A stretch of DNA of 31,147 bases, taken from a virus (Duplodnaviria > Heunggongvirae > Uroviricota > Caudoviricetes). Below, piece after piece: positions 23,505 through 31,147 of the stretch (position 1 is its first letter; each line of letters begins with the position of its first letter). The position numbers and the translations under genes are program-made. Where the stretch lies: IMG/VR virus record IMGVR_UViG_2671180864_000006. One strand, 5' to 3'. A model generated the notes under the pieces. It did not search any database. It was not told the origin of the DNA and saw nothing but the letters and a program-made list of their open reading frames with translations.

Positions 23505-24401
23505 ATGCCTGCCGTTGACCTTTCCCAGTTACCGGAACCCGCCATCATCGCGGAGCCTGACTTTGAGGCAATTCTGGCTGACACAAAGGCCATGATGATT
23601 GCAGCTTATCCCGCCGAACAGCGTGAAGTCGTCTCCGCCGCACTGGAACTGGAATCGGAACCCCTGAACGTTATCGCTCAAACCATGTCGTTTCGTGAAA
23701 TGCTGTTACGCCAGCGGGTCAATGAGGCCGCACGCGCCTGCATGTTGAGCCACAGCGCCGGAACAGACCTGGACAACCTCGCGGGCAATATGAACACAAA
23801 GCGCCTGGTTATCACTCCGGCAACGGATACCACCGACGTGGTGATGGAGAACGACACCTCGCTGAGACTGCGGGCGCAGCGGGCGTATGACGGCCTGAGT
23901 GTTGCAGGCCCGTCAGGCGCATACGAGTATTTTGCCCGCAGCGCCAGCGGTCTGGTGCGCGATGCGCGGGCCATCAGTCCGTCTCCGGCAAATGTGACGG
24001 TTTCCATCCTGTCCACTGAGGGCGACGGCACAGCAACGGAGGCGTTGCTTAATACCGTTCGCGCCGTTCTGAATGCAGAGGATACCCGCCCGGTGGCCGA
24101 CCGCCTGACCGTACAGAGTGCCAGAATCGTGACATGGCGGCTGAATGCAAAACTGTACTTTTACCCCGGTCCGGAATCCGAACCTATTCTGGCTGCGGCT
24201 GAATCGTCGTTCAGGAAGTGGCTGGCTGAGCAGGGGCTTATCGGTCAGGACGTGGCGTTGTCCGCCATTGCTGCCGCACTGCATGTGCACGGTGTGCAAC
24301 GCGTGGAGATAATCGAACCCACACAGAATATGGCCATCAGCGACATACAGGCGGCGCGCTGTGAGTCATTCACCATCAGCGAAGGTGGGCGTAATGAGTA
24401 A
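23505..24401 (+). CDS. J: Baseplate protein, P2 gpJ-like
   Basis: 298-aa ORF in the conserved V-W-J-I order. Confidence 0.85.
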   Translation: MPAVDLSQLPEPAIIAEPDFEAILADTKAMMIAAYPAEQREVVSAALELESEPLNVIAQTMSFREMLLRQRVNEAARACMLSHSAGTDLDNLAGNMNTKRLVITPATDTTDVVMENDTSLRLRAQRAYDGLSVAGPSGAYEYFARSASGLVRDARAISPSPANVTVSILSTEGDGTATEALLNTVRAVLNAEDTRPVADRLTVQSARIVTWRLNAKLYFYPGPESEPILAAAESSFRKWLAEQGLIGQDVALSAIAAALHVHGVQRVEIIEPTQNMAISDIQAARCESFTISEGGRNE

Positions 24402-24924
24402 TTCACTGTTACCACCATCAGCCAGCAATTTCATGCGTTGTGCCGAAGCCGTCGGAACACGCATTACAGACATTCCGGCAGACCTCAACACGCTGTGGTC
24501 GCCGGACACCTGCCCGGTGCATCTGCTGCCTTATCTCGCCTGGGCGTTTTCCGTTGACCGCTGGGATCGCAACTGGCCGGAAGAGACAAAGCGACAGGTG
24601 ATTCGTGATGCATGGCTGATACACCGACACAAAGGAACCATCAGCGCCCTGCGACGGGCCATTGAGCCGCTGGGATACCTCATTCGCGTGTCTGAGTGGT
24701 GGGAGTTCAACGGCGAACCCGGAACATTCAAGATTGATGTTGGCACGCTGGACAGTGGCGTGACGGAGGAAATGTATCTGGAAATGGAGCGGTTGATTGC
24801 TGATGCCCGCCCGGTCAGCCGCCACATGACAGGGCTGAATATCATTCAGGAGATTCAGGGAGATATTTTCGCGGCAGCAGCAACTTACGACGGTGAAGTC
24901 ATTACCATTTATCCGGACGATTAA
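24394..24924 (+). CDS. I: Baseplate/tail protein, P2 gpI-like
   Basis: 176 aa from the internal ATG at 24394 (MSNSLLPP...), overlapping the J stop. Confidence 0.8.
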   Translation: MSNSLLPPSASNFMRCAEAVGTRITDIPADLNTLWSPDTCPVHLLPYLAWAFSVDRWDRNWPEETKRQVIRDAWLIHRHKGTISALRRAIEPLGYLIRVSEWWEFNGEPGTFKIDVGTLDSGVTEEMYLEMERLIADARPVSRHMTGLNIIQEIQGDIFAAAATYDGEVITIYPDD

Positions 24925-24926
24925 GC

Positions 24927-26897
24927 ATGAGTACCACAACACGAAAATTTAAAACCATTATCACCGATACGGGTGCAAAAAAATTAGCGCAGGCAACCGC
25001 GCCAGATGGGAAACCTGTCCGCCTGACACATATGGCCGTGGGTGACGGCGGCGGTACTTTACCCACGCCAGACAGTAAGCAGACCCGTCTTGTGCATGAG
25101 GTGTGGCGACATACCGTTAATCGCGTCACCCTGGACGCAACACATCAGAACCACATTATTGCGGAGCTGGTTATTCCTCCTGAAACGGGCGGATTCTGGA
25201 TCCGGGAAATTGGTGTGTTTGATGAGCACGGCGATTTGATCGCGGTAGGCAATACTGCCGAAAGTTACAAGCCAACCGTTGCCGAAGGATCCGGACGTGC
25301 ACAAACATTTCGCACCATTCTGACCGTATCCAGCACTGCCACTGTGGCGCTTACCGTGGATAACACCATGGTGATGGCCACAGTGAATTACGTGGATGAC
25401 AAACTGAAAGAGCATGAACAGTCACGACGTCACCCGGACGCCTCGCTGACCGCAAAAGGCCTTGTCCAGCTCAGCAACGCCACCAACAGCACGTCTGAAA
25501 CGCTGGCAGCGACACCAAAAGCCGTTAAGGCAGTAATGGATGAAACGAACAAGAAAGCCCCATTAAACAGCCCGGCACTGACCGGAACGCCAACAACACC
25601 AACTGCGCGACAGGGAACGAATAATACCCAAATCGCAAGCACGGCTTTCGTTATGGCTGCGATTGCCGCACTTGTAGACTCTTCGCCTGATGCACTGAAC
25701 ACACTGAACGAGCTGGCGGCGGCGCTGGGCAACGACCCGAATTTTGCGACCACCATGACTAACGCGCTTGCGGGTAAGCAACCGAAAGATGCCACTCTGA
25801 CGGCGCTGGCGGGGCTTGCTACTGCGGCAGACAGGTTTCCGTATTTTACGGGGAATGATGTCGCCAGCCTGGCAACCCTGACAAAAGTCGGGCGGGATAT
25901 TCTTGCGAAATCGACCGTTGCCGCCGTTATCGAATACCTCGGTTTACAGGAAACGGTAAATCAGGCTTCTGGCGCATTACAGAAAAACCAGAACGGCGCA
26001 GATATTCCGGGGAAAGATACCTTCACCAAAAATATTGGTGCCTGCCGCGCATATAGCTCATGGCTGAATATTGGTGGCGATAGTCAGGTCTGGACAACCG
26101 CGCAATTTATTTCGTGGCTGGAGAGTCAGGGAGCATTTAACCATCCTTACTGGATGTGCAAAGGCTCATGGGCTTATGCAAATAATAAGGTCATTACAGA
26201 TACAGGTTGCGGAAATATTTGTCTTGCAGGTGCTGTGGTGGAAGTTATTGGCACTCGCGGCGCAATGACCATACGCGTTACCACGCCGAGCACGTCCAGC
26301 GGTGGCGGAATTACTAACGCTCAATTCACTTATATTAATCATGGTGATGCTTACGCTCCTGGCTGGCGACGAGACTACAACACGAAAAATCAACAACCTG
26401 CATTTGCTTTAGGGCAAACAGGAAGCACTGTCGGAAATGATAAAGCTGTTGGCTGGAACTGGAATAGCGGGGTCTATAACGCAAACATTGGTGGCGCATC
26501 GACATTAATCCTCCACTTCAATATGAATACGGGGAGCTGCCCTGCTGTACAGTTCCGCGTGAATTACAGGAACGGCGGTATTTTTTATCGTTCAGCGCGT
26601 GATGGTTATGGCTTTGAAGCTGACTGGTCAGAGTTTTACACCACAACCCGCAAACCCTCTGCGGGAGATGTTGGTGCATATACGCAGGCAGAATGTAACT
26701 CAAGGTTTATTACAGGTATTCGCCTTGGTGGTCTGTTATCTGTTCAGACATGGAATGGTCCCGGATGGTCTGACAGGTCAGGTTATGTTGTTACCGGTTC
26801 CGTTAACTCAAACAGAGATGAACTAATTGATACAACTCAGGCAAGGCCAATTCAGTATTGCATTAATGGGACGTGGTATAACGCGGGGAGTATTTAA
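24927..26897 (+). CDS. H: Tail fibre protein, P2 gpH-like, with a currently joined variable C-terminal module
   Basis: 656-aa ORF whose N-terminal region is of the P2 gpH type; the C-terminal part downstream of an internal crossover site (25927-25952) resembles the other variable cassettes in this window. Confidence 0.88.
   Translation: MSTTTRKFKTIITDTGAKKLAQATAPDGKPVRLTHMAVGDGGGTLPTPDSKQTRLVHEVWRHTVNRVTLDATHQNHIIAELVIPPETGGFWIREIGVFDEHGDLIAVGNTAESYKPTVAEGSGRAQTFRTILTVSSTATVALTVDNTMVMATVNYVDDKLKEHEQSRRHPDASLTAKGLVQLSNATNSTSETLAATPKAVKAVMDETNKKAPLNSPALTGTPTTPTARQGTNNTQIASTAFVMAAIAALVDSSPDALNTLNELAAALGNDPNFATTMTNALAGKQPKDATLTALAGLATAADRFPYFTGNDVASLATLTKVGRDILAKSTVAAVIEYLGLQETVNQASGALQKNQNGADIPGKDTFTKNIGACRAYSSWLNIGGDSQVWTTAQFISWLESQGAFNHPYWMCKGSWAYANNKVITDTGCGNICLAGAVVEVIGTRGAMTIRVTTPSTSSGGGITNAQFTYINHGDAYAPGWRRDYNTKNQQPAFALGQTGSTVGNDKAVGWNWNSGVYNANIGGASTLILHFNMNTGSCPAVQFRVNYRNGGIFYRSARDGYGFEADWSEFYTTTRKPSAGDVGAYTQAECNSRFITGIRLGGLLSVQTWNGPGWSDRSGYVVTGSVNSNRDELIDTTQARPIQYCINGTWYNAGSI
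25927..25952. promoter_or_regulatory. Crossover site A (gix/pix-like) inside H
   Basis: TTATCGAATACCTCGGTTTACAGGAA, 23/26 identical to the Mu gixL sequence as recalled; encodes IEYLGLQE at the constant/variable junction. Confidence 0.6.
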
Positions 26898-26899
26898 CG

Positions 26900-27433
26900 A
26901 TGATGCACTTAAAAAACATTTCTGCTGGTAATCCTGAAACAAAAGAGCAATACCAGCTAACGAAACAATTTAACATCAAATGGCTTTATACAGAGGATGG
27001 GAAAAACTGGTATGAGGAACAAAAGAACTTTCAGCCTGATACGTTGAAAATGGTCTATGACCACAACGGCGTTATTATTTGTATTGAAAAGGATGTTTCA
27101 GCAATTAATCCGGAAGGCGCAAGCGTCGTTGAGGTTCCTGATATTACAGCAAATCGCCGGGCTGATATTTCAGGTAAATGGATGTTCAAAGATGGCGTAG
27201 TGATAAAGCGAACTTATACCGGGGAAGAGCAGAGGCAACAAGCGGAAAATGAAAAGCAAAGCCTGCTACAGCTCGTCAGGGATAAAACCCAGCTATGGGA
27301 CTCACAGCTACGGCTGGGCATTATTTCCGACGAGAATAAACAAAAATTAACCGAGTGGATGCTCTATGCGCAGAAGGTCGAATCCACAGACACCTCCAGC
27401 CTGCCAGTAACGTTTCCCGAACAACCAGAATGA
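26900..27433 (+). CDS. G: Tail fibre assembly protein, P2 gpG-like
   Basis: 177-aa ORF; close paralogue of the 29029-29562 ORF. Confidence 0.85.
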   Translation: MMHLKNISAGNPETKEQYQLTKQFNIKWLYTEDGKNWYEEQKNFQPDTLKMVYDHNGVIICIEKDVSAINPEGASVVEVPDITANRRADISGKWMFKDGVVIKRTYTGEEQRQQAENEKQSLLQLVRDKTQLWDSQLRLGIISDENKQKLTEWMLYAQKVESTDTSSLPVTFPEQPE

Positions 27434-27436
27434 AAC

Positions 27437-27463
27437 AAGGCCCGATATCGGGCCTTAATTTTT
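27437..27463 (+). terminator. Rho-independent terminator after G
   Basis: Palindrome AAGGCCCGATATCGGGCCTT followed by AATTTTT. Confidence 0.55.
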
Positions 27464-27629
27464 ACTCAGGCTTTTGTGGCCATTCTGGCTTTGCCGTATC
27501 CACACGGCTGACCAGAACACTGTAGCGTTCCCATGCTTCCAGTCGTGTGCGTTCCTCGTCCGTCGCCATATTCAGCCTGACAGCGCGTTCCAGCGGCTGG
27601 ATGACTGATTCAGCTTCGGTCGACGTCCG
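27456..27629 (-). pseudogene. 3' remnant of a convergent tail-fibre assembly gene
   Basis: Identical to the 3' end of the minus-strand assembly gene at 29591-29747; ends at a junction with invertase sequence at about 27629/27630. Confidence 0.7.
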
Positions 27630-28061
27630 CCTGTGCGCCCCCGTGCGCGTGCTGCCGCCAGTCCGGCCAGTGTACGTTCAACAATTAATTCACGTTCCAT
27701 TTCAGCCAGGGCACCCATCACGTGGAAGAAAAAACGCCCCAAGAGAAGATGTATCTATGCTGTCGGTCAGACTGCGAAAATTAATTCCTCGCTCCCGTAG
27801 TTCCCCGACGAGAGAAATCAGATGTTTCATGCTTCGCCCGAGGCGATCCAGTTTCCAGACAACCAGCGTGTCACCTTTTTGAAGGCGCTTTAAAGCACGT
27901 TTTAATCCAGGTCGGCCTGTCCTTGTTCCGCTTAATTTATCTTCAAATATTTGTTCATATCCTGCACAAACAAGAGCGTTTCGTTGCAGGTCTGTATTCT
28001 GGTCATTTGTTGATACCCTTACATAGCCAATCAGCACGCTGAATCTCCCGTCCAAAAGCAC
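27630..28061 (-). pseudogene. Serine DNA invertase (Gin/Pin/Cin/Hin family), truncated and frameshifted
   Basis: N-terminal catalytic domain intact (GYVRVSTNDQNTDLQRNAL...) but the frame breaks after DSIDTSS at about 27715 (apparent 2-bp deletion); the alternate frame continues as [22 protein letters not shown]...GGRRPKL and then fuses to the assembly-gene remnant, so the C-terminal HTH domain is missing. Confidence 0.8.
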
Positions 28062-28091
28062 AAATCATGCCATGCAGGCCAGAAACCGCCA

Positions 28092-28117
28092 TTATCTAAA
28101 ACCTCGGTTTACGAGAA
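28092..28117. promoter_or_regulatory. Crossover site B (gix/pix-like)
   Basis: TTATCTAAAACCTCGGTTTACGAGAA, 23/26 identical to the Mu gixL sequence as recalled; same orientation and reading-frame relation as site A, but with TAA in the first half. Confidence 0.6.
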
Positions 28118-29026
28118 CTCGGCACAAGCGGGGAGAAAATACCGTTACTCAGTACAGCGAATACCTGGACTAATCGACAAACATTCAGCGGTGGCCTTTC
28201 TGGTGAACTATCCGGCAATGCTTCTACAGCTGCAAAATTAAAAACTGCCAGGAAAATAAGCAATGTGGCTTTTGATGGTTCCTCCGATATCACATTAAAA
28301 GCAAGTCATGTTGGTGCGTTTGCCTTAGGGAAAACAGGAAGCACCGTTGCGAATGATAAAGCAGTTGGATGGAACTGGAGTAGCGGAGCCTATAACGCAA
28401 CTATTAGTGGTGCATCAACGTTAATTATTCATTTTTATATGGGAGAAGGAAGTTGTCCTGCAGCTCAGTTTCGGATTAATTATAAAAATGGCGGTATTTT
28501 TTATCGTTCAGCCCGTGATGGTTATGGTTTTGAAGCCGACTGGTCCGAATTTTACACCACCAGAAAACCTTCAGCAGGAGATGTTGGTGCACTGCCGTTA
28601 TCTGGTGGTCAACTGAATGGTGCACTGGGTATCGGAACATCCAGTGCTCTTGGCGGTAATTCGATTGTATTGGGTGATAATGACACGGGCTTTAAACAAA
28701 AAGGCGATGGTAATCTGGATGTTTATGCTAATAACGTCCATGTTATGCGCTTTGTCTCCGGAAGCATTCAAAGTAATAAAACCATAAATATTACGGGACG
28801 TGTTAATCCCTCGGATTACGGTAACTTTGATTCCCGCTATGTGAGAGATGTCAGACTTGGCACACGAGTTGTTTAGACCATGAAGAAAGGCGTGATGTAT
28901 GAAAAATCAGGCCATGTAATCACGGGGCTTGGTATTATCGGTGAAGTCGATGGTGATGATCCGGCAGTATTCAGACCAATACAAAAGTTAATTAACGGAA
29001 CATGGTATAACGTATCGCAGGTATAA
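28100..29026 (+). pseudogene. Promoterless alternative tail-fibre C-terminal cassette with an in-frame amber codon
   Basis: Frame is open from site B (NLGLRELG...) and related to the H C-terminus (KAVGWNW, GIFYRSARDGYGFEADWSEFYTT); TAG at 28874-28876 interrupts it, and the same frame continues to a conserved fibre C-terminus ([11 protein letters not shown]) ending at 29026. Confidence 0.7.
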
Positions 29027-29028
29027 TC

Positions 29029-29562
29029 ATGCAGCATTTAAAAAACATTGTCGCAGGTAATCCAAAAACCGTTGAACAATACCAGCTAACAAAGAATTTT
29101 GATGTTATCTGGTTATGGTCCGAAGATGGAAAAAATTGGCATGAGGAATTAAAAAACTTTCAGGAGGATACAATAAAACTGGCTTACACAGTTGAGGGAA
29201 TAATTATTGCTATAGACAAGGATGTATCAGCAATTAATCCAGAAGGTTTAAGTGTCGTTGAGTTGCCTGATATTACAGCAAATCGCCGGGCTGATATTTC
29301 GGGCAACTGGATGTTCAAAGATGGTGCGGTGATAAAGCGAACTTATACCGAGGAAGAGCAAAGGCAACAAGCGGAAAATGAAAAGCAGAGCCTGCTGCAG
29401 CTCGTCAGGGATAAAACCCAGCTGTGGGACTCTCAGCTACAGCTGGGCATCATTTCCGATGAGAATAAACAAAAATTAACCGAGTGGATGCTCTATGCGC
29501 AGAAGGTCGAATCCACAGACACCTCCAGCCTGCCAGTAACGTTTCCCGAACAACCAGAATGA
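29029..29562 (+). CDS. Tail fibre assembly protein for the second cassette
   Basis: 177-aa paralogue of gpG; C-terminal third is near-identical at the DNA level to G. Confidence 0.8.
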
Positions 29563-29565
29563 AAC

Positions 29566-29592
29566 AAGGCCCGATATCGGGCCTTAATTTTT
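29566..29592 (+). terminator. Hairpin terminator between convergent assembly genes
   Basis: Same AAGGCCCGATATCGGGCCTT palindrome plus AATTTTT as at 27437-27463. Confidence 0.5.
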
Positions 29593-30118
29593 ACTCAGGC
29601 TTTTGTGGCCATTCTGGCTTTGCCGTATCCACACGGCTGACCAGAACACTGTAGCGTTCCCATGCTTCCAGTCGTGTGCGTTCCTCGTCCGTCGCCATAT
29701 TCAGCCTGACAGCGCGTTCCAGCGGCTGGATGACTGATTCAGCTTCGGAAAGCAATGCGGCCTTTTGTGATTCGGCCTGTTGTTGCTGTTCGTCAGCCGT
29801 ATAAATCCGTTTAACCACAGCTCCGTCCTTAAACATCCACTTACCGGAATCATCAGCACGACGATTAGCTGTAATATCAGGAACCTCAACGACGCTATAA
29901 CCTTCAGGGTTAAGCGTGGAGGCATCTTTGGTGATGGCGACAATAATATTATTTGCATCGTAAACAATCTTTATTGTGTCTGGCTGAAAGTTCTTCACTT
30001 CCTCATACCAGTTTTTTCCGTCCTCAGAGTAAAGCCAGATGACTCCGTGCTTCTTTGTTAACTCATACTGCTCCACTGTTTTAGCATTACCTGCTTTTAT
30101 GTTCTTTAAGTGCATCAT
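29591..30118 (-). CDS. Tail fibre assembly protein for the third (inverted) cassette
   Basis: Minus-strand gpG/Tfa homologue starting [11 protein letters not shown]; the track's 11-aa N-terminal extension is probably spurious. Confidence 0.75.
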
Positions 30119-30119
30119 A

Positions 30120-31147
30120 TTAAATACTCGCCACATTATACCAAGTGCCATTTATATACTTTTGCACTGGCCTGTAATGAACGCCTGCAATATTATCGGC
30201 AGAGTTTTTTCCGGTATCCTGTACGTTAATCCCCGTCAGTACATAGCCTGACGGGCACTGAAAATTCCATGTTTGCCAGTTGTTCACTCCATAATATTGC
30301 TGTGAACCAAGTCGAACATCTTTCACATATCTGGAATCAAAATTGCCATAGTTGCCGGGAATAACTTGCGAGCCGCAAAGCCAGTTCCCGTTATTATCCA
30401 TGTACGCCTGACCATCGGTGCCATTGGCTGTCCTTGAGTTATTAATCATGTAGATGCCAAATTGCTTATTTCCCAGACCGCCAATCATAAATTTGCGGTC
30501 GGCATGGTCCTGACGGAGCAAAGCCTGAGCACCATCAGTGGATACCGCATTACGTCCCAAAATAACATTCTGGTCACGCATATGAATCCACATGCCGGTA
30601 CTACTGTTAATTGCAAAACGGTTTGCAAATATATCCCCTGTAACATCAAGACCATGCCCCATGCTTATCCGGCCAGTTCTGAGATTAAGCGTAAAGGGGC
30701 GTAGTGGCCCTATATTACCATTTTCCCCTTCATTCTCTCGTGTAGGGATGATATGCAGGCATTCTTCAGAACGACGAAAAATGGCACCAAAAGATGAATT
30801 AAATATCCTCAGTGCATTGACTGTCGATATTTTCACTTCACTGCTGAAAAGGGCTTCAACAAGAACAGACAAAGCATTCCATTTAAGATTCATCAGGTCT
30901 TTAGGCCGGGTGCCAATGATGCGGTGTCTCCATTTGAAATATTCATTGCCGTTGTTGCCTGTTTCAAACCACATGTAGGAATCGGTGTCTGCATCCGAAT
31001 TATTTTTAAACCCAATCTTTGCCCAGTCAGTATTTCGAATCCAGGCAAGGATTGAGTCGTTTTCAAAAGTAAGTCCACCGGACAACGTATCGCCATTTTT
31101 TTGCACGGCGTTACCAGCCTTGTTTACCGTTTCCTGTAAACCGAGGT
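30120..31147 (-). CDS. Third alternative tail-fibre C-terminal cassette, inverted orientation (partial; open frame leaves the window)
   Basis: Minus-strand ORF ending in a conserved fibre C-terminus ([11 protein letters not shown]); the frame stays open upstream through site C, encoding ...[21 protein letters not shown], the same junction peptide as in H. Confidence 0.75.
31131..31147. promoter_or_regulatory. Crossover site C (gix/pix-like), inverted relative to A and B, cut by the window end
   Basis: TTCCTGTAAACCGAGGT is the reverse complement of the right half of sites A and B. Confidence 0.55.

What the first reader, a model, noticed from the sequence alone, without database searches (positions are those of the whole stretch)
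28874..28876. In-frame amber codon inside the second alternative tail-fibre cassette
The cassette frame reads ...DVRLGTRVV, then TAG, then continues in the same frame to the conserved fibre C-terminus. A single nonsense codon in an otherwise intact cassette suggests recent inactivation of a silent copy, suppressor-dependent expression, or a sequencing error.
Basis: seen in the sequence. Interest (0 to 1): 0.4.

Follow-up and report, generated by a model that had tools for sequence, protein, structure and literature searches.

The report
Inherited amber stop in silent tail-fibre cassette
The stop codon is real: it is an inherited Gln-to-amber (CAG to TAG) mutation carried by many Shigella sonnei assemblies in a spare, unexpressed phage tail-fibre cassette, so it is ordinary prophage decay and not a sequencing error or a special coding trick.

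Summary
TAG at 28874-28876 is there, in frame, as described. Seven orthologous cassettes (two E. coli prophages, five P2-like phages including Yersinia phage L-413C) have CAG (Gln) at this codon, so it is a C-to-T nonsense change.

It is not an error and not private to this sequence. The 909-nt cassette is identical, TAG included, in all 16 related loci compared at nucleotide level. Three further loci carry the TAG 42-mer. The truncated 203-aa product is on record in 2,308 index blocks. One carrier is Shigella sonnei ATCC 29930.

In those genomes the cassette sits in an IS-riddled lambdoid prophage and occurs in both inversion states, so it went on flipping after the mutation.

In the window it lies in a 2,129-bp insertion within a P2-like prophage that is otherwise 99.99% identical to its canonical S. 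sonnei relatives. It follows a truncated, frameshifted invertase remnant, has no start codon and is not fused to the fibre gene, so it is silent.

If fused, the stop would remove the last 50 residues, the tip homologous to the phage Mu fibre C-terminus.

No suppressor tRNA lies in the window, and no diverged relative keeps the stop.

Verdict: ordinary pseudogenisation, low interest. The three-cassette layout is unusual but was not found in any other assembly.

The parts
24927..26897 (+). Expressed tail-fibre gene H of the P2-like prophage (656 aa): constant part Hc up to site 1, fused to variable end Hv1
   Evidence: ORF. Pfam Phage_tail_fib and Phage_fiber_2. The exact protein occurs in S. 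sonnei-type assemblies with the canonical layout.
25927..25952 (+). Crossover site 1, TTATCGAATACC-TC-GGTTTACAGGAA (half-site types c-a), at the constant/variable junction of H
   Evidence: 0 matches expected by chance in 100 shuffles.
26900..27433 (+). tfa1, the tail-fibre assembly chaperone for Hv1; it is followed by a terminator-like hairpin at 27437-27456
   Evidence: 100% identical to L022.
27458..27619 (-). Duplicated 3' fragment (about 160 nt) of tfa3. It forms the left end of the 2,129-bp insertion and is identical to 29587-29748.
   Evidence: The last 288 nt of the 546-nt direct repeat are identical.
27621..28037 (-). Serine-invertase remnant. It is lambdoid-type from its upstream site to about 27897 (ORF start 28037) and P2-type from about 27869 down to 27621. 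It has a 2-nt deletion (frameshift) at about 27741 and is truncated at codon ~139, so it has no HTH domain. It joins the tfa3 fragment at the 10-nt microhomology CCGAAGCTGA (27610-27619).
   Evidence: Alignment A1.
28092..28117 (+). Crossover site 2, TTATCTAAAACC-TC-GGTTTACGAGAA (types i-b), in direct orientation relative to site 1
28118..29028 (+). Silent fibre cassette Hv2 (the frame is open from 28100). It is 100% identical to the S. sonnei lambdoid-prophage cassette.
28874..28876 (+). The amber codon: TAG where orthologues have CAG (Gln)
29029..29562 (+). tfa2, an intact 177-aa chaperone for Hv2; it is followed by the second copy of the hairpin at 29566-29585
   Evidence: Pfam Caudo_TAP. 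The exact protein is in 4,765 index blocks.
29591..30118 (-). tfa3, chaperone for Hv3 (175 aa in relatives)
30120..31106 (-). Silent inverted fibre cassette Hv3 (328-aa ORF)
   Evidence: The exact protein is in canonical relatives.
31131..31147 (-). Partial crossover site 3 (ACC-TC-GGTTTACAGGAA on the minus strand). The window ends inside it.

Best explanation
The TAG is a genuine, inherited CAG-to-TAG (Gln-to-amber) nonsense mutation in a tail-fibre C-terminal cassette that is spread through many Shigella sonnei assemblies. It most likely arose once in the invertible tail-fibre segment of a defective, IS-riddled lambdoid prophage next to the trp operon, and has been carried passively since. 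In the window, a 100% identical copy of that cassette with its chaperone gene lies inside a 2.1-kb insertion in the invertible region of a P2-like prophage next to btuC. That copy presumably arrived by recombination through the shared tfa and invertase sequences. Here the cassette is silent: it abuts a dead invertase remnant, has no start codon and is not joined to the fibre constant region. Two successive inversions (site 1 x site 3, then site 1 x the now-inverted site 2) would fuse it in frame. The product would then stop after 594 of 644 residues and lack the distal tip, so it would very probably be non-functional. Shown: the codon, its ancestral state, its recurrence, the anatomy and the inversion states. 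Inferred: loss of function, the single origin, and the route by which the copy reached the P2-like prophage.
For: TAG is in frame. CAG is present in 7 of 7 orthologues: 2 E. coli prophages and 5 P2-like phages. None of 5,426 complete E. coli genomes carries the TAG 61-mer; the six that match all differ from it. The exact TAG 39-mer occurs in 6 IMG/VR contigs. The TAG 42-mer is in 19 of 19 loci L006-L021 and L028-L030. Hv2 is 909/909 nt identical in the 16 loci compared. The exact 203-aa truncated product is in 2,308 index blocks. L019 is CP026802.1, S. sonnei ATCC 29930. The host lambdoid prophage is decayed: IS1 and IS3-family insertions, a split J gene and a 60-aa invertase stub. Both inversion states exist, with reciprocal hybrid half-sites: i-b/c-a versus c-b/i-a. 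The window prophage differs from canonical L022 by 1 mismatch in 12,693 nt apart from the insertion. The invertase remnant is frameshifted and truncated. The tip after DVRLG aligns with the phage Mu fibre C-terminus in PDB 5YVQ and 8JU3. In Mu, the chaperone binds the distal part of the fibre (PMC9608196).
Against: Loss of function was not tested. The 49 codons after the stop are still intact, and the chaperone gene tfa2 is intact. That would also fit a cassette still in use, although S. sonnei is so clonal that too little time has passed for further decay. The window's three-cassette arrangement, and so the route by which the cassette got there, is not seen in any other assembly examined. An assembly join across the 288-nt identical repeat is therefore not excluded for part of it.
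Confidence: 0.88

Rival explanations
1. Sequencing or assembly error: the true base at 28874 is C.
For: The closest E. coli orthologues differ from the window at this base.
Against: The same T occurs in 19 other loci from independent assemblies, including complete genomes. The truncated ORF is called in 2,308 index blocks.
Confidence: 0.01
2. The stop is leaky or suppressor-dependent. Near-cognate tRNA-Gln readthrough, or a supE-type suppressor, would restore the ancestral Gln exactly, so the cassette would still yield some full-length fibre when it is flipped into the expression site.
For: The ancestral codon is CAG, so Gln insertion would restore the wild-type protein (that supE inserts Gln is established knowledge). 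The downstream 49 codons and tfa2 are intact. The cassette is found in the expressed orientation in four loci.
Against: There is no tRNA gene in the window. The stop is not conserved in any diverged relative. The intact downstream sequence is explained by clonality, since Hv2 is 100% identical across all carriers compared. In S. sonnei the cassette's prophage is broken by IS elements, so no fibre would be useful there. Basal UAG readthrough in wild-type enterobacteria is low (general knowledge, not measured here).
Confidence: 0.04
3. Split gene: translation stops at TAG and restarts at ATG 28880, three nucleotides later, giving a truncated fibre plus a 48-aa tip peptide that assemble together.
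For: An ATG lies 3 nt after the stop, and gene callers do call a 48-aa ORF there.
Against: That Met is ancestral: orthologues read QTMKKG or QTMQKG. No Shine-Dalgarno-like sequence precedes it (GGCACACGAGTTGTTTAGACC). No relative has a two-gene arrangement.
Confidence: 0.02
4. The cassette's presence in the P2-like prophage is an assembly chimera. The contig path jumps through the near-identical tfa-terminator-tfa repeat between the P2-like prophage and the lambdoid module elsewhere in the same genome. On this reading the TAG is real but the cassette is not a 'second alternative cassette' of this prophage.
For: The insertion is flanked by a 546-nt repeat whose last 288 nt are identical. The arrangement is absent from about 40 related loci, 5,426 E. 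coli genomes, IMG/VR and the GTDB representatives. The window ends at a repeat or IS-prone site. IMG/VR contig L010 is another P2/lambdoid hybrid.
Against: The left junction is a unique 10-nt microhomology join, too short for a k-mer mis-join. The adjacent P2-type invertase segment carries a private 2-nt deletion. Both must therefore exist in the source DNA.
Confidence: 0.3

Closest known systems
Phage Mu G segment (S/U and S'/U' with gin), and the P2-like phage P88 (Xuanwuvirus) version of it
   Same: It has 26-bp crossover sites at the constant/variable junction of the fibre gene, and convergent pairs of fibre end plus tfa chaperone. In canonical relatives a serine invertase sits just outside the segment. 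Nucleotide identity is 90-92% over most of the region. The fibre tip is homologous to Mu S.
   Different: The window has a third cassette, Hv2, in direct orientation behind an internal dead invertase remnant. No intact invertase lies within the window.
Multiple-inversion systems such as Min of plasmid p15B (several crossover sites, many fibre ends); this comparison rests on my own knowledge and was not tested here
   Same: There are more than two fibre-end cassettes and more than two crossover sites. Reaching some cassettes needs successive inversions.
   Different: Only three sites are present, and one cassette is a nonsense pseudogene. The extra unit looks like a recent insertion flanked by direct repeats, not an evolved shufflon. 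Its existence in vivo is unconfirmed.
Rac/e14-type lambdoid prophage stf-tfa invertible segments with pin (E. coli NCTC86 and OZ040035 loci; S. sonnei ATCC 29930)
   Same: This is the source of Hv2-tfa2. S. sonnei copies are 100% identical and E. coli copies 98.6-98.7% identical. The i-b and c-b site types and the invertase stub are the same.
   Different: The E. coli copies have CAG, while the S. sonnei copies and the window have TAG. In the window the cassette sits in a P2-like prophage and not a lambdoid one.
Classical amber (CAG to TAG) phage mutants grown on supE hosts (textbook genetics)
   Same: It is the same base change, and Gln insertion would restore the wild-type protein.
   Different: Those are laboratory mutants kept on suppressor strains. 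Here there is no sign of a suppressor, and the allele sits in defective or silent prophage DNA.

Membership tests
Gin/Cin/Pin/Hin-type (Din family) invertible tail-fibre segment | 26-bp crossover sites with imperfect dyad half-sites around a 2-bp core, placed at the constant/variable junction of the fibre gene | tested here: met
   Sites lie at 25927-25952 and 28092-28117, with a partial site at 31131-31147. 0 matches expected by chance in 100 shuffles. The reading frames of sites 1 and 2 coincide, so exchange at the TC core gives an in-frame fusion, as seen in L008, L010 and L019.
Gin/Cin/Pin/Hin-type (Din family) invertible tail-fibre segment | Alternative fibre C-termini, each followed by its own tail-fibre assembly (Tfa) gene, in convergent orientation | tested here: met
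   Hv2-tfa2 (+) faces tfa3-Hv3 (-). tfa2 matches Pfam Caudo_TAP; tfa3 by its Caudo_TAP annotation in relatives.
Gin/Cin/Pin/Hin-type (Din family) invertible tail-fibre segment | Intact serine invertase (Resolvase plus HTH_7) next to a crossover site | tested here: not met
   Within the window there is only a frameshifted remnant of about 139 codons without the HTH domain. Canonical relatives encode an intact 195-aa invertase immediately beyond site 3, where the window stops. In several S. sonnei genomes an IS splits that half-site.
Gin/Cin/Pin/Hin-type (Din family) invertible tail-fibre segment | Both orientations occur, with reciprocal exchange exactly at the site core | tested here: met
   This holds for the lambdoid copy of the same cassette: i-b with c-a (L011, L013, L018, L021) versus c-b with i-a (L019, L020). 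It was not observable for the window's own segment, which is a single sequence.
Gin/Cin/Pin/Hin-type (Din family) invertible tail-fibre segment | Fis-dependent recombinational enhancer within the 5' part of the invertase gene (established for gin, cin and hin) | not tested
   The 5' roughly 190 nt of the invertase gene is retained in all remnants and is highly conserved. No enhancer or Fis-site test was run.
Nonsense-mutated prophage pseudogene | Orthologues carry a sense codon at the position | tested here: met
   CAG in 7 of 7 orthologues.
Nonsense-mutated prophage pseudogene | The allele is reproducible in independent assemblies, so it is not an error | tested here: met
   19 other loci carry it, and the truncated product is in 2,308 index blocks.
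Nonsense-mutated prophage pseudogene | Other decay in the same element or lineage | tested here: met
   IS insertions, a split J gene and an invertase stub in the S. sonnei lambdoid prophage. A frameshifted, truncated invertase remnant in the window. A codon deletion in Hv2.
Nonsense-mutated prophage pseudogene | The truncated product is non-functional | not testable with these tools
   This is inferred only. The missing 50 residues align with the C-terminal tip of the Mu fibre.
Suppressor-dependent or programmed-readthrough gene | A suppressor tRNA encoded by the element | tested here: not met
   ARAGORN finds 0 tRNA genes in the window.
Suppressor-dependent or programmed-readthrough gene | The stop codon is conserved among diverged relatives | tested here: not met
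   All compared carriers are 100% identical over the 909-nt cassette. Every diverged relative has CAG.
Suppressor-dependent or programmed-readthrough gene | The host carries an amber-suppressor allele | not testable with these tools
   Whole S. sonnei genomes could not be scanned for tRNA anticodons.

The most novel reading that the evidence does not exclude
The amber cassette is not dead but leaky. Near-cognate tRNA-Gln readthrough (or a supE-type host) restores the ancestral Gln, so the cassette provides a low-dose third receptor specificity when flipped in. In addition, the window records live traffic of fibre cassettes between a lambdoid and a P2-like prophage, through shared crossover sites and tfa homology.
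Probability: 0.04. Interest if true: 0.45.

Novelty: already known. Interest (0 to 1): 0.1.

Why it matters
It matters little beyond annotation. The codon should be annotated as a pseudogene lesion inherited across the sampled S. sonnei assemblies, and not flagged as an error or as recoding. It could serve as a simple lineage marker if wider sampling confirms it: TAG is in every S. sonnei-type locus fetched and absent from the 5,426 complete E. coli genomes searched. The context is mildly instructive. Invertible fibre cassettes keep flipping, with an invertase presumably supplied in trans, after they have become pseudogenes. They can apparently also move between unrelated prophages.

Tried and rejected
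- **Exact TAG 39-mer in GTDB species representatives:** 0 hits. This is uninformative, because S. sonnei is probably not a separate representative.
- **Unique insertion features:** I searched for the junction 38-mer and the 2-nt-deletion 40-mer in IMG/VR and GTDB, with 0 hits.
- **ORFs spanning the junction or remnant:** three look-ups found nothing on record.
- **Insertion region against E. coli:** BLAST of 27380-28130 against 5,426 E. coli genomes gave no place covering 80% or more, and every listed (top) hit starts at the junction. The source assembly and any second example of the three-cassette layout were therefore not found.
- **Dcm (CCWGG) deamination hotspot as the cause:** rejected, because the ancestral context is GTTCAGACC.
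- **Phage-encoded suppressor tRNA:** none found.
- **Palindromic head-to-head junction of two P2-like prophages:** I considered this for the window's right half. I dropped it because 29400-31147 is collinear with the canonical single prophage.
- **Contig end as evidence of inversion heterogeneity:** an IS insertion in that half-site, present in many S. sonnei genomes, explains it at least as well.

Full report
**1. The observation**

Window 28874-28876 is TAG. In the frame of the surrounding cassette there are 258 open codons before it (from 28100) and 49 after it. The translation reads ...[67 protein letters not shown] and ends at 29026-29028. With the stop read as Gln, the frame hits Pfam gp37_C (above cutoff) and gp37_trimer (sub-threshold). 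It also aligns with the solved phage Mu tail-fibre proteins 8JU3 (E 9e-55) and 5YVQ (E 5e-16). The 5YVQ match covers the stretch from ...NFDSRYVRDVRLGT to ...INGTWYNV, which spans the stop. This is a real fibre-coding cassette with one internal stop.

**2. The ancestral state**

- The closest E. coli copies (NCTC86, OZ040035; 98.6-98.7% identical over 941 nt) read RVVQTMKKG, with CAG at this codon.
- Five P2-like phage gpH genes (L-413C, vB_EcoM-569R9, P24B2, vB_YpM_22, vB_EcoM-720R8) also have CAG.
- The change is therefore C to T, Gln to amber.
- The context GTTCAGACC is not a Dcm site.
- Against the E. coli copies the cassette also has an in-frame 3-nt deletion (one Thr codon, at about 28554), Asn-to-Lys at 28702 and three synonymous changes. 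tfa2 has two amino-acid changes but is intact.

**3. The allele is neither an error nor private to this sequence**

- None of 5,426 complete RefSeq E. coli genomes has the TAG 61-mer. Six match it, and all six differ from it.
- The exact 39-mer occurs in six IMG/VR contigs.
- All ten NCBI loci retrieved through the exact tfa2 protein, and three retrieved through the truncated ORF, carry the TAG 42-mer.
- Over the 909-nt cassette, the 16 loci compared are 100% identical to the window.
- The exact 203-aa truncated product (GTG 28265 to TAG) is on record in 2,308 blocks of the gene index, and tfa2 in 4,765.
- One carrier, CP026802.1, is Shigella sonnei ATCC 29930 (PMC9430107 and PMC11331407).
- A contig with the window's exact H and Hv3 proteins, AKNC01000050, is from S. 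sonnei 3226-85 (PMC5447701).
- The window's P2-like prophage differs from such relatives (L022) by 1 mismatch in 12,693 nt. The window is therefore almost certainly S. sonnei.
- From my own knowledge, S. sonnei is a young, nearly monomorphic clone. That would explain the 100% identity without invoking selection.

**4. Where the cassette normally lives**

In the S. sonnei genomes it sits in a lambdoid prophage beside trpA. The layout is: stf constant part | Hv2 tfa2 / tfaX' HvX' | a 60-aa invertase stub, followed by a tfa fragment and a methyltransferase.

That prophage is decayed. IS1 and IS3-family elements interrupt it, J is split into two ORFs, and in several genomes the stf constant part is replaced by an IS. 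This fits the IS-driven genome degradation described for Shigella (PMC7373316, seen).

The crossover half-sites can be typed. The left half is c (fibre side, GTTATCGAATACC) or i (invertase side, ATTATCTAAAACC). The right half is a (GGTTTACAGGAA...) or b (GGTTTACGAGAA..., the Hv2 type). Two states occur:

- Loci with i-b at Hv2 have c-a at the other end, where that end was captured (L011, L013, L018, L021).
- L019 and L020 have c-b at Hv2 and i-a at the other end.

This is a clean reciprocal exchange at the TC core. The TAG cassette therefore exists both silent and fused to the fibre gene. The fused form gives an 875-aa product ending at the TAG in ATCC 29930. Inversion continued after the mutation. 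The stub cannot catalyse it. An invertase acting in trans is implied, and the same genome (GCA_003606425.1, L013 and L023) has an intact 195-aa invertase in its P2-like prophage.

**5. Anatomy in the window**

- Host btuCED genes lie at the left end, by the E. coli annotation under the match.
- A P2-like prophage follows, with J, I and H at 23505-26897.
- The canonical relatives read H(Hc|Hv1) tfa1 / tfa3' Hv3' | invertase, followed by U and T on the opposite strand.
- The window is that layout plus a 2,129-bp insertion (27620-29748). The insertion is flanked by a 546-nt direct repeat (27074-27619 and 29203-29748), whose last 288 nt are identical.

The insertion holds three things:

- An invertase remnant on the minus strand.
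- Site 2 (type i-b), in direct orientation relative to site 1.
- Hv2(TAG) and the 5' part of tfa2, both of lambdoid type.

The invertase remnant has these features (alignment A1):

- Its first ~140 nt of coding sequence, with the upstream site, carry the lambdoid stub's SNPs.
- From about 27869 down to 27621 it matches the P2-like invertase.
- A private 2-nt deletion at about 27741 shifts the frame.
- It is truncated at nt 441 of the feature as mapped (codon ~139 of the ORF from 28037), so it has no HTH domain.
- It joins the tfa3 3' fragment at the 10-nt microhomology CCGAAGCTGA.

Consequences for expression:

- An in-frame TAA (28097-28099) lies inside site 2, and no start codon precedes Hv2, so the cassette is silent.
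- The frames of sites 1 and 2 coincide (…EYLGL…), so fusion would be in frame.
- Fusion needs a site 1 x site 3 inversion followed by a site 1 x site 2 inversion, or a deletion between the direct sites.
- The fused product would stop after 594 of 644 residues.

The window ends inside site 3, at the last base common to the c and i half-sites. In canonical relatives the i half-site and the intact invertase follow. In five S. sonnei loci an IS3-family element sits in that half-site, which would both break a short-read contig there and disable the site.

**6. How solid is the three-cassette arrangement?**

- I could not find it anywhere else. It is absent from about 40 related loci, 5,426 E. coli genomes, IMG/VR and the GTDB representatives. 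Look-ups of junction-spanning ORFs also found nothing.
- The microhomology junction and the private 2-nt deletion cannot be k-mer artefacts, so part of it must be real.
- The joins through the 288-nt identical repeat could still be an assembly path.
- I rate it about 0.7 real. If real, the flanking direct repeats fit a single-crossover insertion or unequal exchange through the tfa-terminator-tfa repeat, followed or preceded by a patch from the lambdoid module. This is inference.
- IMG/VR contig L010 is a second P2/lambdoid hybrid of a different kind.

**7. Mechanism and rivals**

- **Best explanation (0.88):** a single inherited nonsense mutation, neutral because the cassette lives in defective or silent prophage DNA. 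It removes the distal 50 residues that align with the Mu fibre tip. In Mu, the Tfa chaperone binds the distal part of the fibre (PMC9608196). Fibres recognise LPS (PMC11915804).
- **Sequencing error:** refuted.
- **Suppression or readthrough:** Gln insertion would restore the wild type, but there is no tRNA in the window, no conservation of the stop outside the identical set, and the host could not be scanned. I rate it about 0.04.
- **Restart at ATG 28880:** the Met is ancestral and has no Shine-Dalgarno sequence. I rate it about 0.02.

**8. Comparison, novelty and score**

The system works like, and by site sequence, cassette layout and observed reciprocal inversion belongs to, the Gin/Cin/Pin-type invertible tail-fibre segments (Mu G, P1 C, e14 P, phage P88). 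The one defining feature not met inside the window is an intact invertase.

A nonsense codon in a spare cassette of a decaying Shigella prophage is an ordinary, already-known kind of event. Interest is 0.1. The only mildly unusual aspects are two. A pseudogenised cassette still flips, and it appears to have been copied from a lambdoid into a P2-like prophage.

Noticed in passing
window 27621-28037 (-), junction at 27610-27619: A dead serine-invertase remnant lies inside the fibre region. Its 5' part carries the SNPs of the lambdoid stub and the rest matches the P2-like invertase. It has a private 2-nt deletion at about 27741, is truncated at codon ~139, and is fused to a tfa3 3' fragment at the 10-nt microhomology CCGAAGCTGA.
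   Followed up: yes
window 27620-29748 (flanking repeats 27074-27619 and 29203-29748): This is a 2,129-bp insertion relative to the otherwise 99.99%-identical canonical S. sonnei P2-like prophage. It creates a three-cassette layout that I could not find in any other assembly. It may be strain-specific or partly an assembly join.
   Followed up: partly
window 31131-31147; L032-L034, L037, L038: The window stops inside crossover site 3, at the last base shared by the two half-site types. In five S. sonnei loci an IS3-family element is inserted in exactly that half-site, between Hv3 and the invertase. That should lock the P2-like segment.
   Followed up: partly
L013, L018, L019, L020, L021 (S. 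sonnei lambdoid prophage beside trpA): The lambdoid invertible segment keeps only a 60-aa invertase stub, yet it occurs in both orientations with reciprocal hybrid half-sites. Inversion must therefore be driven in trans, probably by the P2-like prophage's intact 195-aa invertase in the same genome. In ATCC 29930 the TAG cassette is the one fused to stf.
   Followed up: partly
window about 28860-28866: 488 E. coli records cover at least 80% of the query. Most listed hits match Hv2 at about 98.5% only up to this point and then diverge. Fibre tips therefore appear to be exchanged as modules at the conserved [14 protein letters not shown] motif, a few codons before the TAG.
   Followed up: no
L010 (IMGVR_UViG_2695420708_000013): This is a hybrid contig. 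P2-like J-I-Hc (nt 1-878) is joined out of register to lambdoid stf/Hv2(TAG)/tfa2/tfaX/HvX/stub/methyltransferase, then to the P2-like invertase, U and T. The H gene is frameshifted. It is either a real inter-prophage recombinant or an assembly chimera.
   Followed up: partly
window about 28554 and 28702: Hv2 also carries an in-frame one-codon (Thr) deletion and an Asn-to-Lys change relative to its E. coli orthologues. At protein level both are present in the six IMG/VR copies translated; the 16 loci compared are nucleotide-identical over the cassette.
   Followed up: yes
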